In this document: piece after piece, positions 47,472-56,907 of the stretch
Numbering within the stretch: position 1 is the stretch's first letter
Layout: the number at the start of each line of letters is the position of its first letter
DNA from: the human T2T-CHM13v2.0 reference genome, Homo sapiens
Assembly: GCF_009914755.1 (NCBI RefSeq)
Contig: NC_060936.1
Length of the DNA stretch: 64,000 nucleotides
Strand: one strand, 5' to 3'
Notes under the pieces: model-generated
Databases searched by the model: none
What the model was told of the DNA's origin: nothing
The model's input: the letters and a program-made list of their open reading frames with translations, nothing else
Made by a program: the position numbers and the translations under genes

Positions 47472-47487
47472 AAAAATAACATATATC
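47472..47487 (+). repeat. 5' copy of 16-bp target-site duplication AAAAATAACATATATC
   Basis: identical to 56892-56907; preceded by TTT, giving a canonical L1 endonuclease TT/AAAA site. Confidence 0.92.
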
Positions 47488-47755
47488 GAATCTGGCCACT
47501 GGGCCAAGGAATGCCCACAGCCTGGGATTCCTCCTAAGCCATGTCCCATCTGTGTGGGACCCCACTGAAAATCGGACTGTTCAACTCACCTGGCAGCCAC
47601 TCCCAGAGGCCCTGGAACTCTGGCCCAAGGCTCTCTGACTGACTCCTTCCCAGATCTTCTCGGCTTAGCGGCTGAAGACGGACACTGCCCGATGGCCTCA
47701 GAAGCCCCCTAGACCATCACGGACGCCGAGCTTTAAGTAACTCTCACAGTGGAAG
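47488..47755 (+). mobile_element. HERV-H internal fragment (gag NC zinc knuckles to start of pro), no LTR
   Basis: translates ESGHWAKECPQPGIPPKPCPICVGPH*KSDC...LLGLAAED...VTLTVE; retroviral CCHC knuckles; matches recalled HERV-H gag/pro sequence. Confidence 0.88.
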
Positions 47756-48038
47756 AAAAGAAGGAATACCGGGGGAGGAGCCAAGATGGCCAAATAGGAA
47801 CAGCTCCGGTATACAGCTCCCAGCGTGAGCGACGCAGAAGACAGGTGATTTCTGCATTTCCATCTGAGGTACCCGGTTCATCTCACTAGGGAGTGCCAGA
47901 CAGTGGGCGCGGGTCAGTGGGTGCGTGCACCATGCGCAAGCCGAAGCAGGGCGAGGCATTGCCTCACTTGGGAAGCGCAAGGGGACAGGGAGTTCCCTTT
48001 CCGAGTCAAAAAAAGGGGTGACAGACGCACCTGGATAA

Positions 48039-48221
48039 TCAGGTCACTCCCACCCGAATATTGCGCTTTTCGGACCGGCTTAAAAAACGGCGCACCACGA
48101 GATTATATCCTGCACCTGGCTCGGAGGGTCCTACGCCCACGGAATCTCGCTGATTGATAGCACAGCAGTCTGAGATCAAACTGCAAGGCGGCAGCGAGGC
48201 TGGGGGAGGGGCGCCCGCCAT
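48039..48221 (-). pseudogene. L1 antisense ORF0, truncated to 60 aa
   Basis: MAGAPPPASLPPCSLISDCC...RVGVT* in the L1 5' UTR; the stop comes earlier than in the 71-aa consensus ORF0. Confidence 0.8.
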
Positions 48222-48669
48222 TGCCCAGGCTTGATTAGGTAAACAAAACAGCCGGGAAGCTCGAACTGGGTGGAGCCCACCACAGCTCAAGGAGGCCTGC
48301 CTGCCTCTGTAGGCTCCACCTCTGGGGGCAGGGCACAGACAAACAAAAAGACAGCAGTAACCTCTGCAGACTTAAATGTCCCTGTCTGACAGCTTTGTAG
48401 AGAGCAGTGGTTCTCCCAGCACGCAGCTGGAGATCTGAGAACGGGCAGACTGCCTCCTCAAGTGGGTCCCTGACCCCTGAGCAGCCTAACTGGGAGGCAC
48501 CCCCCAGCAGGGGCACACTGACACCTCACAGGGCAGGGTATTCCAACAGACCTGCAGCTGAGGGTCCTGTCTGTTAGAAGGAAAACTAACAAACAGAAAG
48601 GACATCCACACCAAAAACCCATCTGTACATCACCATCATCAAAGACCAAAAGTAGATAAAACCACAAAG

Positions 48670-52700: not shown

Positions 52701-53576
52701 ATTCAGGACATAGGCGTGGGCAAGGACTTCATGTCCAAAACACCAAAAGCAATGGCAACAAAAGCCAAAATTGACAAATGGGATCTAATTAAACTAACGA
52801 GCTTCTGCACAGCAAAAGAAACTACCATCAGAGTGAACAGGCAACCTACAACATGGGAGAAAATTTTCGCAACCTACTCATCTGACAAAGGGCTAATATC
52901 CAGAATCTACAATGAACTCAAACAAATTTACAAGAAAAAAACAAACAACCCCATCAAAAAGTGGGCGAAGGACATGAACAGACACTTCTCAAAAGAAGAC
53001 ATTTATGCAGCCAAAAAACACATGAAGAAATGCTCATCATCACTGGCCATCAGAGAAATGCAAATCAAAACCACTATGAGATATCATCTCACACCAGTTA
53101 GAATGGCAATCATTAAAAAGTCAGGAAACAACAGGTGCTGGAGAGGATGTGGAGAAATAGGAACACTTTTACACTGTTGGTGGGACTGTAAACTAGTTCA
53201 ACCATTGTGGAAGTCAGTGTGGCGATTCTTCAGGGATCTAGAACTAGAAATACCATTTGACCCAGCCATCCCATTACTGGGTATATACCCAAAGGACTAT
53301 AAATCATGCTGCTATAAAGACACATGCACACGTATGTTTATTGCGGCACTATTCACAATAGCAAAGACTTGGAACCAACCCAAATGTCCAACAATGATAG
53401 ACTGGATTAAGAAAATGTGGCACATATACACCATGGAATACTATACAGCCATAAAAAATGATGAGTTCATGTCCTTTGTAGGGACATGGATGAAATTGGA
53501 AACCATCATTCTCAGTAAACTATCGCAAGAACAAAAAACCAAACACCGCATATTCTCACTCATAGGTGGGAATTGA
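49750..53576 (+). pseudogene. L1 ORF2p (EN-RT-C), disrupted in the 5' part
   Basis: ATGACAGGATCA start; in-frame TGA at 49924-49926; 1-bp deletion near 50686; open 847-aa remainder with the FADD RT motif. Confidence 0.95.
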
Positions 53577-53789
53577 ACAATGAGATCACATGGACACAGG
53601 AAGGGGAATATCACACTCTGGGGACTGTGGTGGGGTCGGGGGAGGGGGGAGGGATAGCATTGGGAGATATACCTAATGCTAGATGACACGTTGGTGGGTG
53701 CAGCGCACCAGCATGTCACATGTATACATATGTAACTAACCTGCACAATGTGCACATGTACCCTAAAACTTAGAGTATAATAATAAAAA

Positions 53790-56700
53790 AAAAAAACTAG
53801 AAAAGCAAGAGCAAACACATTCAAAAGCTAGCAGAAGGCAAGAAATAACTAAAATCAGAGCAGAACTGAAGGAAATAGAGACACAAAAAACCCTTCCAAA
53901 AATTAATGAATCCAGGAGCTGGTTTTTTGAAAGGATCAACAAAATTGATAGACCGCTAGCAAGACTAATAAAGAAAAAAAGAGAGAAGAATCAAATAGAC
54001 ACAATAAAAAATGATAAAGGGGATATCACCACCGATCCCACAGAAATACAAACTACCATCAGAGAATACTACAAACAACTCTACGCAAATAAACTAGAAA
54101 ATCTAGAAGAAATGGATAAATTCCTCGACACATACACTCTCCCAAGACTAAACCAGGAAGAAGTTGAATCTCTGAATAGACCAATAACAGGAGCTGAAAT
54201 TGTGGCAATAATCAATAGTTTACCAACCAAAAAGAGTCCAGGACCAGATGGATTCACAGCCGAATTCTACCAGAGGTACAAGGAGGAACTGGTACCATTC
54301 CTTCTGAAACTATTCCAATCAATAGAAAAAGAGGGAATCCTCCCTAACTCATTTTATGAGGCCAGCATCATTCTGATAACAAAGCCGGGCAGAGACACAA
54401 CCAAAAGAGAGAATTTTAGACCAATATCCTTGATGAACGTTGATGCAAAAATCCTCAATAAAATACTGGCAAAACGAATCCAGCAGCACATCAAAAAGCT
54501 TATCCACCATGATCAAGTGGGCTTCATCCCTGGGATGCAAGGCTGGTTCAATATATGCAAATCAATAAATGTAATCCAGTATATACACAGAGCCAAAGAC
54601 AAAAACCACATGATTATCTCAATAGATGCAGAAAAAGCCTTTGACAAAATTCAACAACCCTTCATGCTAAAAACTCTCAATAAATTAGGTATTGATGGGA
54701 TGTATTTCAAAATAATAAGAGCTATCTATGACAGACCTACAGCCAATATCATACTGAATAGGCAAAAACTGGAAGCATTCCCTTTGAAAACTGGCACAAG
54801 ACAGGGATGCCCTCTCTCACCACTCCTATTAAACGTAGTGTTGGAAGTTCTGGCCAGGACAATTAGGCAGGAGAAGGAAATAAAGGGTATTCAATTAGGA
54901 AAAGAGGAAGTCAAATTGTCCCTGTTTGCAGACGACATGATTGTATATCTAGAAAACCCCATTGACTCAGCCCAAAATCTCCTTAAGCTGATAAGCAACT
55001 TCAGCAAAGTCTCAGGATACAAAATGAATGTACCAAAATCACAAGCATTCTTATACACCAACAACAGACAAACAGAGAGCCAAATCATGAGTGAACTCCC
55101 ATTCACAATTGCTTCAAAGAGAATAAAATACCTAGGAATCCAACTTACAAGGGATGTGAAGGACCTCTTCAAGGAGAACTACAAACCACTGCTCAAGGAA
55201 ATAAAAGAGGATACAAACAAATGGAAGAACATTCCATGCTCATGGGTAGGAAGAATCAATATCGTGAAAATGGCCATACTGCCCAAGGTAATTTACAGAT
55301 TCAATGCTATCCCCATAAAGCTACCAATGACTTTCTTCACAGAATTGGAAAAAACTACTTTAAAGTTCATATGGAACCAAAAAAGAGCCCGCATTGCCAA
55401 GGCAATCTTAAGCCAAAAGAACAAAGCTGGAGGCATCACGCTACCTGACTTTAAACTATACTACAAGGCTACAGTAACCAAAACAGCATGGTACTGGTAC
55501 CAAAACAGAGATATAGATCAATGGAACAGAACAGAGCCCTCAGAAATAACGCCTCATATCTACAACTATCTGATCTTTGACAAACCTGAGAAAAACAAGC
55601 AATGGGGAAAGGATTCCCTATTTAATAAATGGTGCTGGGAAAACTGGCTAGCCATATGTAGAAAGCTGAAACTGGATCCCTTCCTTACACCTTATACAAA
55701 AATCAATTCAAGATGGATTAAAGACTTAAACGTTAGACCTAAAACCATAAAAACTCTAGAAGAAAACCTAGGCATTACCATTCAGGACATAGGCATGGGC
55801 AAGGACTTCATGTCCAAAACACCAAAAGCAATGGCAACAAAAGACAAAATTGACAAATGGGATCTAATTAAACTAAAGAGCTTCTGCACAGCAAAAGAAA
55901 CTACCATCAGAGTGAACAGGCAACCTGCAAAATGGGAGAAAATTTTTGCAACCTACTCATCTGACAAAGGGCTAATATCCAGAATCTACAATGAACTCAA
56001 ACAAATTTACAAGAAAAAAACAAACAACCCCATCAAAAAGTGGGCGAAGGACATGAACAGACACTTCTCAAAAGAAGACATTTATGCAGCCAAAAAACAC
56101 ATGAAAAAATGCTCATCATCACTGGCCATCAGAGAAATGCAAATCAAAACCACAATGAGATACCATCTCACACCAGTTAGAATGGCAATGATTAAAAAGT
56201 CAGGAAACAACAGGTGCTGGGGAGGATGTGGAGAAACAGGAACACTTTTACACTGTTGGTGGGACTGTAAACTAGTTCAACCACTGTGGAAGTCAGTGTG
56301 GCGATTCCTCAGGGATCTAGAACTAGAAATACCATTTGACCCAGCCATCCCATTACTGGGTATATACCCAAAGCACTATAAATCATGCTGCTATAAAGAC
56401 ACATGCACACGTATGTTTATTGCAGCATTATTCACAATAGCAAAGACTTGGAACCAACCCAAATGTCCAACAATGATAGACTGGATTAAGAAAATGTGGC
56501 ACTTATACACCATGGAATACTATGCAGCCATAAAAAATGATGAGTTCATGTCCTTTGTAGGGACATGGATGAAATTGGAAATCATCATTCTCAGTAAACT
56601 ATGGCAAGAACAAAAAACCAAACACCGCATATTCTCACTCATAGGTGGGAATTGAACAATGAGATCACATGGACACAGGAAGGGGAATATCCACTCTGGG

Positions 56701-56891
56701 GACTGTGGTAGGGTGGGGGGAGGGGGTAGGGATAGCATTGGGAGATATACCTAATGCTAGATGACGAGTTAGTGGGTGCAGCGCACCAGCATGTCACATG
56801 TATACATATGTAACTAACCTGCACAATGTGCGCATGTACCCTAAAACTTAAAGTATAATAAAAAAATAAAAAAAAAGAAAAGCAGGAAAAA
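53790..56891 (+). mobile_element. 3' 3.1 kb of an L1PA2-like element (open RT+C frame 54112-56655, 3' UTR, A tail)
   Basis: direct repeat of 50711-53789 (offset 3079); GAG diagnostic at 56766-56768; aaagtataat end. Confidence 0.95.
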
Positions 56892-56907
56892 AAAAATAAC
56901 ATATATC
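56892..56907 (+). repeat. 3' copy of 16-bp TSD AAAAATAACATATATC
   Basis: identical to 47472-47487. Confidence 0.92.

What the first reader, a model, noticed from the sequence alone, without database searches (positions are those of the whole stretch)
47472..56907. HERV-H::L1 chimeric retrotransposon: L1 apparently mobilised from a spliced HERV-H-driven transcript (5' transduction)
Seen: one perfect 16-bp TSD (AAAAATAACATATATC, 47472-47487 and 56892-56907, at a TTT/AAAAA L1-endonuclease site) encloses both a 268-bp LTR-less retroviral gag/pro fragment (47488-47755) and the full-length L1 starting at 47771. They therefore inserted together as one polyadenylated RNA by TPRT. Recalled knowledge: the fragment is HERV-H, and it stops at ...CTCTCACAGTGGAAG, where HERV-H continues GTAAG, a donor used in HERV-H chimeric transcripts. 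HERV-H/LTR7 is strongly active in pluripotent cells. Inference: an upstream HERV-H LTR drove transcription and spliced onto an acceptor 15 nt before a source L1PA2, and the chimeric mRNA retrotransposed with 5' truncation inside the HERV-H exon. This would be an ERV promoter licensing L1 mobilisation, bypassing control of the L1 promoter, possibly with a family of sibling copies.
Basis: partly seen in the sequence, partly recalled or inferred. Interest (0 to 1): 0.92.

Follow-up and report, generated by a model that had tools for sequence, protein, structure and literature searches.

The report
HERV-H exon carried by L1
An old jumping gene (L1) landed here carrying a short spliced piece of the endogenous retrovirus HERV-H on its front end, a route already published for one other human locus, and a younger L1 later landed inside it.

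Summary
A perfect 16-nt target-site duplication occurs exactly twice in the window. It encloses a 267-nt LTR-less HERV-H gag/pro piece, a 15-nt A-rich linker and an L1 5' end.

The HERV piece stops exactly where 27 of 28 genomic copies continue with GT (25 of 28 with GTAAG). This fits a splice donor joined to the flank of a source L1.

The mechanism is not new. Searching with the junction led to chr1p31.1. There a HERV-H exon1-exon2 RNA ends at the same donor and is spliced 7 nt before an L1 whose source L1 and source provirus (about 124 kb upstream) both lie on chr11. That case is published (PMC6425141). Spliced 5' transductions as a class are catalogued in PMC13174262.

An old L1 (GAG type, L1PA2-like) is interrupted in register by a 3.09-kb younger L1 3' half (ACG type, pre-Ta-like).

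No source L1, source provirus or sibling was found for this copy. Its LTR start is therefore inferred, not shown.

Verdict: a second, older and independent example of a known kind. I found no paper that mentions it.

The parts
47472..47487 (.). 5' copy of the 16-nt target-site duplication, at a TT/AAAAA endonuclease-type site
   Evidence: The 16-mer occurs exactly twice in the window.
47488..47488 (+). Single G that is not templated by HERV copies. It is either an extra base or a substitution.
   Evidence: all 29 other copies have A at this place. PMC6425141 reports an untemplated G at the 5' end of the chr1 case.
47489..47755 (+). HERV-H internal fragment (end of gag nucleocapsid and start of pro), LTR-less. 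It is the last 267 nt of the internal exon 2 of spliced HERV-H RNA and ends at the donor. Each of the three frames holds 3 stop codons.
   Evidence: 94.8-96.6% to 28 genomic copies. 87% over a 412-column alignment with the chr1 chimera that also includes L1, and 85.8% for the HERV piece alone. Maps to 3349-3615 of proviral locus L034. Pfam zf-CCHC E 9.3e-4, 19.6 bits, below the cut-off of 20.8. Stop counts.
47756..47770 (+). 15-nt A-rich linker, neither HERV nor L1. Read as the 5' flank (target-site copy) of an unidentified source L1, downstream of a cryptic acceptor.
   Evidence: HERV copies continue differently. The linker resembles the A-rich flanks of other L1 5' ends. In the chr11 analogue the acceptor AG sits 7 nt before the L1. 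No second copy in the genome.
47771..50710 (+). Old L1, 5' part: 5'UTR, ORF1 and the start of ORF2
   Evidence: 92 differences from the chr11 L1 in bins covering 2850 nt (3.2%). All 39 other copies are printed as 98%. 12 private substitutions in 1477 columns.
48670..49686 (+). ORF1 of the old L1, broken by 1 in-frame stop, with no frameshift
   Evidence: Counts, bounds. Frames taken from the chr11 L1.
49750..56655 (+). ORF2 of the old L1, broken. It has 1 stop and 1 frameshift in its 5' part and is interrupted once by the nested L1. Its 3' part has no stop or frameshift.
   Evidence: Counts, bounds.
50711..53796 (+). Nested younger L1 3' half: ORF2 3' part with no stop or frameshift, 3'UTR with ACG, and a 12-A tail. 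It is set in register at the TT/AAAAAAA run of the old L1. The left boundary is ambiguous because of homology.
   Evidence: 32 differences from the chr11 L1 over about 3070 nt (1.0%). 38 other copies are printed as 99-100%. The meaning of ACG comes from PMC7026601.
53797..56858 (+). Old L1, 3' part: rest of ORF2 and 3'UTR with GAG
   Evidence: 97.4% to the chr11 L1. Of 38 other copies, 33 are printed as 98% and 5 as 97%. The best match is the same chr17 L1 that is best for the 5' part.
56859..56891 (+). Interrupted A-rich tail of the old L1
   Evidence: An 11-nt likeness to the linker in this tail is not significant (2534 of 20000 shuffles reach it).
56892..56907 (.). 3' copy of the target-site duplication

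Best explanation
Event 1 is inferred for this copy and shown for the chr11-to-chr1 analogue. A HERV-H transcript used the donor at the end of its internal gag/pro exon. It spliced to a cryptic acceptor in the A/T-rich target site 15 nt before a full-length L1 of L1PA2 type lying elsewhere in the genome. The chimeric polyadenylated RNA was copied into chr12 by target-primed reverse transcription at a TT/AAAAA site, making a 16-nt duplication. Copying stopped, or the RNA began, about 100 nt into that exon, so no LTR sequence arrived. I date this to roughly 5-8 million years ago, which rests on recalled substitution rates.

Event 2 came later. A younger L1 of the pre-Ta type (ACG) was primed at the internal TT/AAAAAAA run of the resident L1. 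Its cDNA was resolved by homology with the resident copy. The result is old 5' half, young 3' half with poly(A), then old 3' half, all in register.

Today the locus is an inert remnant. The old L1 has ORF1 with 1 stop, and ORF2 with 1 stop, 1 frameshift and the insertion.
For: - One TSD encloses everything and occurs only twice in 64 kb.
- There is no LTR or other proviral sequence in the window.
- The HERV piece ends at the base after which 27 of 28 copies read GT. What follows in the window is unrelated to HERV.
- The chr1 locus ends its HERV part at the same base. There it is exon 1 plus exon 2 joined at GT-AG sites. Both exons are 100% identical to one chr11 provirus (175 of 175 and 355 of 355). 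That exon 2 ends about 124 kb upstream of, and on the same strand as, the L1 that is 99.69% identical to the chr1 L1. The acceptor ...tttaaAG lies 7 nt before that L1.
- This agrees with PMC6425141.

For event 2:
- 97.5% repeat offset by 3079 nt.
- Difference density against the chr11 L1 falls from 3.2% to 1.0% at L1 position about 2940, where the repeat begins.
- Neighbour identities are 98% (5' part), 99-100% (middle) and 97-98% (3' part).
- The same chr17 L1 is the nearest relative of both old parts.
- The triplets are ACG versus GAG.
Against: - No source L1 or sibling has this linker at up to 3 mismatches in 27 nt.
- No provirus is closer than 96.6% among the 40 scored of 1094 candidates. 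The cis arrangement, the acceptor and the LTR start are therefore unproven here.
- The linker's possible 3' copy is not significant.
- Searches score only the best candidates and hide closed regions.
- No ape genome was available, so the age rests on divergence and recalled rates.
- In-register resolution of event 2 leaves no separate TSD to check.
Confidence: 0.75

Rival explanations
1. Trans-splicing. The HERV-H donor was joined to a separate L1 read-through RNA that started upstream of its source L1, with no provirus upstream on the same chromosome.
For: No cis source pair was found. PMC13174262 raises trans-splicing for mRNA::L1 chimeras whose source L1 cannot be found.
Against: The one traceable HERV-H case is cis, with provirus and L1 on the same strand of chr11. 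A source may simply be lost, or the provirus may have been reduced to a solo LTR.
Confidence: 0.12
2. Template switch during reverse transcription. The L1 enzyme reached the 5' end of an L1 RNA that began 15 nt upstream of the element and jumped onto a HERV-H RNA, so no chimeric RNA ever existed.
For: Sense-oriented chimeras of this kind (U6/L1 and others) are known. Short 5' extensions of 10 and 18 nt from upstream initiation are reported in PMC6425141.
Against: The jump would have to land exactly on the donor base, as in the independent chr1 case. PMC13174262 disfavours template switching where a splice junction is present.
Confidence: 0.08
3. Two unrelated insertions. A HERV fragment was already at the site and an L1 landed beside it.
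For: None found.
Against: The only TSD encloses both. The HERV piece has no LTR, poly(A) or duplication of its own.
Confidence: 0.02
4. The 3.08-kb repeat is a tandem duplication or a gene-conversion product, not a second retrotransposition.
For: The two copies are in register and share a short A-run at the joint.
Against: The middle copy ends in its own poly(A). It carries ACG where the other carries GAG. It is 1.0% from a Ta L1 where its neighbours are 2.6-3.2%. It also has far closer relatives elsewhere in the genome.
Confidence: 0.05

Closest known systems
Ref_Chr1_p31.1a, an L1 with a 539-nt spliced HERV-H (LTR7Y) 5' transduction from the chr11 lineage-progenitor L1 (Salvador-Palomeque et al. 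2019, PMC6425141; passages read)
   Same: The HERV-H part ends at the same internal donor base. A short A-rich flank (7 nt there, 15 nt here) separates it from a full-length L1 5' end. One TSD encloses the whole, and one unmatched G lies at the 5' end.
   Different: The proviruses differ: the HERV parts are only 85.8% alike. The linker and source L1 differ. The L1 there is young (ACA, 99.69% to its source), whereas here it is of GAG type and about 2.6-3.2% from that L1. The chr1 copy keeps exon 1 and a 3' transduction, so its source is traceable. This copy is cut short inside exon 2 and its source is unknown.
Spliced mRNA/lncRNA::L1 5' transductions (17 in hg38), including RAP1GDS1/L1PA2 with a cryptic acceptor 15 bp before the L1 (PMC13174262; passages, section 13)
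   Same: The upstream exon ends at a donor, the L1 is near full length and sense-oriented, one TSD encloses the whole, and the source L1 is often not found.
   Different: The upstream exon here is retroviral and repetitive, not a unique host exon. 'HERV' occurs 0 times in that paper's main text. Its Table S5 could not be seen. This window's linker plus L1 start occurs nowhere else in the genome, so it is not a copy from that source.
U6/L1-type chimeras made by template switching or RNA ligation (as described in PMC13174262)
   Same: A foreign RNA copy lies in sense orientation at the 5' side of an L1 within one TSD.
   Different: In those chimeras the L1 is usually 5'-truncated and the partner is a whole small RNA. 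Here the L1 is full length and the partner ends at a splice donor.
Chimeric L1s, in which a new L1 cDNA is resolved by homology with a resident L1 in cell-culture assays. Recalled from Gilbert et al. 2002 and 2005; not seen here.
   Same: The new L1 joins a resident L1 through homologous sequence. This is the reading given to 50711-53796.
   Different: From recall, the published cases usually involve deletion of target DNA. Here nothing is lost and the result is an in-register duplication. This comparison was not tested against any paper.

Membership tests
L1-mediated retrotransposition (TPRT) insertion | Target-site duplication flanking the whole insert | tested here: met
   16 of 16 nt identical, and the only two copies in 64 kb.
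L1-mediated retrotransposition (TPRT) insertion | Endonuclease-type site and an A-rich 3' tail | tested here: met
   TT/AAAAA at the 5' TSD edge and a 33-nt interrupted A-rich tail.
Spliced 5' transduction | The upstream segment ends exactly at a splice donor of its parent | tested here: met
   GT follows in 27 of 28 parent-family copies and GTAAG in 25 of 28. The independent chr1 case ends at the same base.
Spliced 5' transduction | A source locus with an acceptor just before the source L1 and the donor upstream on the same strand | tested here: not met
   No other place has the linker plus L1 start at up to 3 mismatches. The best provirus is 96.6%. The nearby chr8 L1 and the chr17 L1 have other TSDs. 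Searches are not exhaustive and the source may be lost. This feature is met for the chr11-to-chr1 analogue.
Spliced 5' transduction | Start at the LTR promoter (exon 1 present) | tested here: not met
   There is no LTR or leader sequence in the window. The copy begins about 100 nt into exon 2.
HERV-H | Sequence similarity along the whole piece to proviruses of the family | tested here: met
   94.8-96.6% to 28 copies flanked by proviral sequence. Two such loci have LTR pairs. The piece aligns to exon 2 of the chr11 provirus that PMC6425141 names HERV-H/LTR7Y. No repeat library with family names was on hand.
HERV-H | Retroviral gag nucleocapsid motif | tested here: inconclusive
   Half a zinc knuckle: zf-CCHC E 9.3e-4, 19.6 bits against a cut-off of 20.8. 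The second stop-free stretch has no hit.
L1PA2 (old L1) | GAG at the 3'UTR diagnostic triplet, and divergence typical of a pre-human-specific subfamily | tested here: met
   GAG read, its meaning from PMC7026601. Neighbours at 97-98%. 0.8% private substitutions. GAG says 'L1PA2 or older', so L1PA3 is not formally excluded.
L1Hs pre-Ta (nested L1) | ACG at the 3'UTR diagnostic triplet, and close relatives in the genome | tested here: met
   ACG read, its meaning. 38 other copies at 99-100%. 1.0% from a Ta L1.
Age by orthology | Presence or absence at the orthologous site in apes | not testable with these tools
   No primate genome other than this reference was on hand.

The most novel reading that the evidence does not exclude
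The internal HERV-H donor at the gag/pro border may be a recurrent entry route for L1. Two events millions of years apart, from different proviruses and different source L1s, use the same base. The acceptor may be supplied by the L1 target site itself: a T-rich stretch followed by an A-rich duplication containing the first AG, 7-15 nt before the element. If so, any full-length L1 downstream of an active donor carries a built-in cryptic 3' splice site. It could then be transcribed from a foreign promoter in pluripotent cells where its own promoter is silenced.
Probability: 0.3. Interest if true: 0.6.

Novelty: new member of a known kind. Interest (0 to 1): 0.4.

Why it matters
This locus shows that the HERV-H-to-L1 splice route reported once for a young human L1 also operated earlier, with another provirus and another L1, at the same donor base. 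That makes the route look recurrent rather than a one-off.

It also gives a concrete junction motif to look for in genomes and in embryo or stem-cell RNA data.

The locus is also a clean example of an L1 landing in register inside an older L1. That structure reads like a single over-long L1 and can mislead annotation and dating.

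Tried and rejected
- I first thought the 15 nt after the HERV piece were diverged HERV sequence, which would need no splice. 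I rejected this because 28 copies continue with a different, conserved sequence.
- I thought L1 copies whose matches ran into the linker might be relatives. They are only A-rich target sites.
- I tested whether the tail holds a 3' copy of the linker, as in the chr11 family. It is not significant: 2534 of 20000 shuffles reach the same match.
- I considered the chr8 pair as the source: the best HERV match lies 118 kb upstream of a same-strand L1 that is among the 98% neighbours. I rejected it because that L1's TSD and 5' end differ. The same holds for the nearest chr17 L1.
- No provirus lies within 20 kb upstream of the chr11 L1. It lies about 124 kb upstream.
- A fuzzy-match donor count gave 16 of 28. 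It was faulty because of shifted matches and is replaced.
- The mid-L1 panel of four loci added little.
- Paper searches and 70/71 gave nothing useful.
- No paper seen mentions this chr12 locus. 'Chr12' and 'L1PA2' occur 0 times in PMC6425141 and 'HERV' 0 times in PMC13174262. Supplements were closed and subscription papers are not covered.
- Not used: protein word search, Atlas, structure tools, viral or microbial contig scans, and Rfam.

Full report
**1. Observation**

The window reads ...gatTT|AAAAATAACATATATC|G|AATCTGG... at 47472 onward, and ...aaaaa|AAAAATAACATATATC|cacat at 56892 onward. A script found this 16-mer exactly twice on the + strand of the 64-kb window and never on the - strand.

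Between the two copies lie, in order:
- one G (47488);
- a 267-nt retroviral piece (47489-47755);
- 15 A-rich bases (47756-47770);
- an L1 5' end (47771 onward).

A BLAST of two 10-kb proviral loci against the whole window matched only 47489-47755, at 95.9% and 96.6%. There is no LTR and no other proviral part in the window. The core observation therefore holds.

**2.

The stretch from 47771 to the tail is 9.1 kb, about 3 kb too long for one L1. Two tools found the reason:
- The repeat finder reported direct repeats spaced 3079 and 3078 nt apart.
- A self-BLAST reported 50711-53807 against 53790-56884 at 97.5% over 3097 nt.

At the joint, an L1 3' end with a 12-A tail runs straight into L1-internal sequence. 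That internal sequence begins at the run TTAAAAAAACTAG, which is also present at 50702.

I compared these parts with the chr11 L1 found below. The first 2940 nt differ at 3.2% (92 differences in bins covering 2850 nt). The next 3070 nt differ at 1.0% (32 differences). In 50-nt bins the drop falls at L1 position about 2940-2950, which is the repeat boundary. The third block differs at 2.6%.

| Block, 2-kb query | Other copies scored | Printed identity | Candidates |
|---|---|---|---|
| 5' block | 39 | all 98% | 8561 |
| Middle block | 38 | 3 at 100%, 35 at 99% | 4751 |
| 3' block | 38 | 33 at 98%, 5 at 97% | 7843 |

The best match of the 5' block and the best match of the 3' block are adjacent parts of one chr17 L1. 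That L1 shares two uncommon variants with them (read by eye).

The middle block has ACG at the 3'UTR diagnostic triplet and the 3' block has GAG. Passages of PMC7026601 say ACG marks L1Hs pre-Ta and GAG marks L1PA2 or older.

My reading is that the old L1 is 47771-50710 plus 53797-56858. A younger L1 3' half (50711-53796) was primed at the internal TT/AAAAAAA site and resolved in register by homology. This mechanism is inferred. The likeness to the 'chimeric L1s' of cell-culture studies is recalled and was not checked against any paper.

**3. Break counts**

Frames were taken from the chr11 L1, which has ORFs of 338 and 1275 aa.
- Old 5' part: ORF1 has 1 stop. The ORF2 5' part has 1 stop and 1 frameshift.
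- Nested young part: 0 stops and 0 frameshifts over 2862 nt of ORF2.
- Old 3' part: 0 stops and 0 frameshifts over 2856 nt.
- ORF2 of the old element is also interrupted once, by the nested L1.
- The 268-nt HERV stretch has 3 stop codons in each frame. One may be the natural gag terminator, which is recalled and not tested.

**4. The HERV end is a splice donor**

A genome search with 47440-47860 scored 40 of 2550 candidates: the window itself, 38 HERV-only copies and one locus that runs on into L1.

In the 28 HERV-only loci that I fetched, the piece is 94.8-96.6% identical. The bases after its last base are GT in 27 of 28 and GTAAG in 25 of 28. The exceptions are two with GTAAA and one with ATAAG. 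All of them then continue with a conserved sequence unrelated to the window's linker.

**5. The second locus and its source**

The exceptional locus lies on chr1 at 83.89 Mb, on the minus strand. It has the same HERV end followed by AATTGTA and an L1 5' end.

Reading it outward gives this structure:
- a TSD of (A)GAAAAACAAATCA on both sides;
- one extra G;
- 175 nt matching the LTR end plus leader of a typical provirus;
- joined directly to about 357 nt that lie 1.5 kb further on in that provirus and end at the same donor;
- then AATTGTA, a full L1 and poly(A);
- AAGAATTGTA again, about 70 nt of unique sequence, poly(A) and the TSD.

The unique 3' stretch occurs at 8 places with strong matches, out of 15 scored. 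At chr11:95449429 the flank runs on without poly(A), so this is the source. That chr11 L1 is 99.69% identical to the chr1 L1 over 6137 nt. It is preceded by ...tttttacatttttaaAG|AATTGTA|GGGGAGG.

The chr1 exon 2 is 355 of 355 identical to chr11:95318823-95319177. Exon 1 is 175 of 175 identical to chr11:95316977-95317151. Both lie on the same strand, and exon 2 ends about 124 kb upstream of the L1. The junctions there are GT-AG.

All of this is already in print. [quoted passage not shown]

**6. Back to the window**

The window copy is independent of the chr11 system:
- Its HERV part is only 85.8% identical to the chr1/chr11 exon, against 95-97% to other proviruses.
- Its linker differs.
- Its L1 is of an older type.

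The window piece corresponds to the last 267 nt of exon 2. Exon 1 and about 100 nt of exon 2 are absent. This reflects either incomplete reverse transcription or a start inside the exon. The unmatched G at 47488 fits either reading and could also be a substitution.

The source was not found:
- The 27-nt linker plus L1 start occurs only in the window, at up to 2 and up to 3 mismatches.
- The L1-to-L1 joint is also unique: 1 full-length match among 40 scored of 172 candidates.
- The closest provirus is 96.6% identical (40 scored of 1094 candidates).
- A same-strand L1 lies 118 kb downstream of that provirus on chr8, but it has a different TSD and 5' end.

The 11-nt likeness of the tail to the linker is not significant.

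For this copy, the donor use is shown. The acceptor, the cis layout and the LTR start are inferred by analogy.

**7. Family and age**

Family: HERV-H, by alignment to the exon of the provirus that PMC6425141 names. There is weak support from half a zinc knuckle (zf-CCHC, E 9.3e-4, below the Pfam cut-off). No named repeat library was on hand.

Two typical proviruses have LTR pairs 96.9% and 95.0% identical. The family is therefore much older than this retrocopy.

The retrocopy's age is that of the old L1:
- GAG type;
- nearest copies at about 98%;
- 12 private substitutions in 1477 aligned columns (0.8%), against 3 for the Ta L1 of chr11.

With recalled rates of about 0.1-0.17% per million years, this gives roughly 5-8 million years. 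PMC7026601 states that L1PA2 is thought to have amplified before the human-chimpanzee split. No ape genome could be consulted.

The nested L1 is younger: ACG type, with nearest copies at 99-100%.

**8. Comparison and novelty**

The closest known case is Ref_Chr1_p31.1a. The class of spliced 5' transductions, with 17 mRNA/lncRNA cases and a cryptic acceptor 15 bp before an L1PA2 in RAP1GDS1, is described in PMC13174262 (section 13 read whole, other passages).

That paper's main text never mentions HERV, and PMC6425141 never mentions Chr12 or L1PA2. Supplements were closed, so I cannot say that the locus is unlisted.

I file it as a new member of a known kind. What it adds is that the same HERV-H donor recurs in an older, independent event.

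**9. Limits**

- Genome searches score only the best candidates and hide closed regions.
The dating panel is therefore small and covers only the first 1.5 kb of the old L1.
- Subfamily rates and the 'chimeric L1' precedent are recalled.

Noticed in passing
G000:C5:33210878-33210994 (-), locus L076: An older L1 3' end with poly(A) abuts L1-internal sequence near the same internal A-run as the window's L1-to-L1 joint (82% across the joint). It may be another in-register L1-in-L1 event.
   Followed up: partly
G000:C14, locus L048 positions 1351-2135: A 785-nt stretch is 100% identical to the 3' end, transduction and flank of the chr1p31.1 chimera. It is a partial duplicate only; the upstream part matches at 90% out of register.
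   Followed up: partly
G000:C23:75628551-75628644 (+), locus L051: An L1 3' end carries the full chr11-derived 3' transduction with its own poly(A) and flank. I saw no matching entry in the part of Table 3 of PMC6425141 that I read.
   Followed up: no
G000:C8:98303071-98303337 (+) and G000:C8:98421361-98427400 approx (+): A HERV-H provirus lies 118 kb upstream of a same-strand full-length L1 of the 98% neighbour class. This is the same layout as the published chr11 pair, but the L1's TSD (AGAAATCAGGGAGATGG) shows it is not this window's source.
   Followed up: yes
window 56940-56975: A short TTTA-type microsatellite lies just 3' of the insertion. It is followed by masked repeats, and the 3' end of SLC5A8 lies 319 nt beyond the TSD.
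   Followed up: no
loci L038-L047 (12 L1 5' ends read): Several full-length L1s are preceded by A-rich target-site copies, sometimes after Alu poly(A) tails. These resemble the window's linker in composition, which is why junction searches pick them up.
   Followed up: yes
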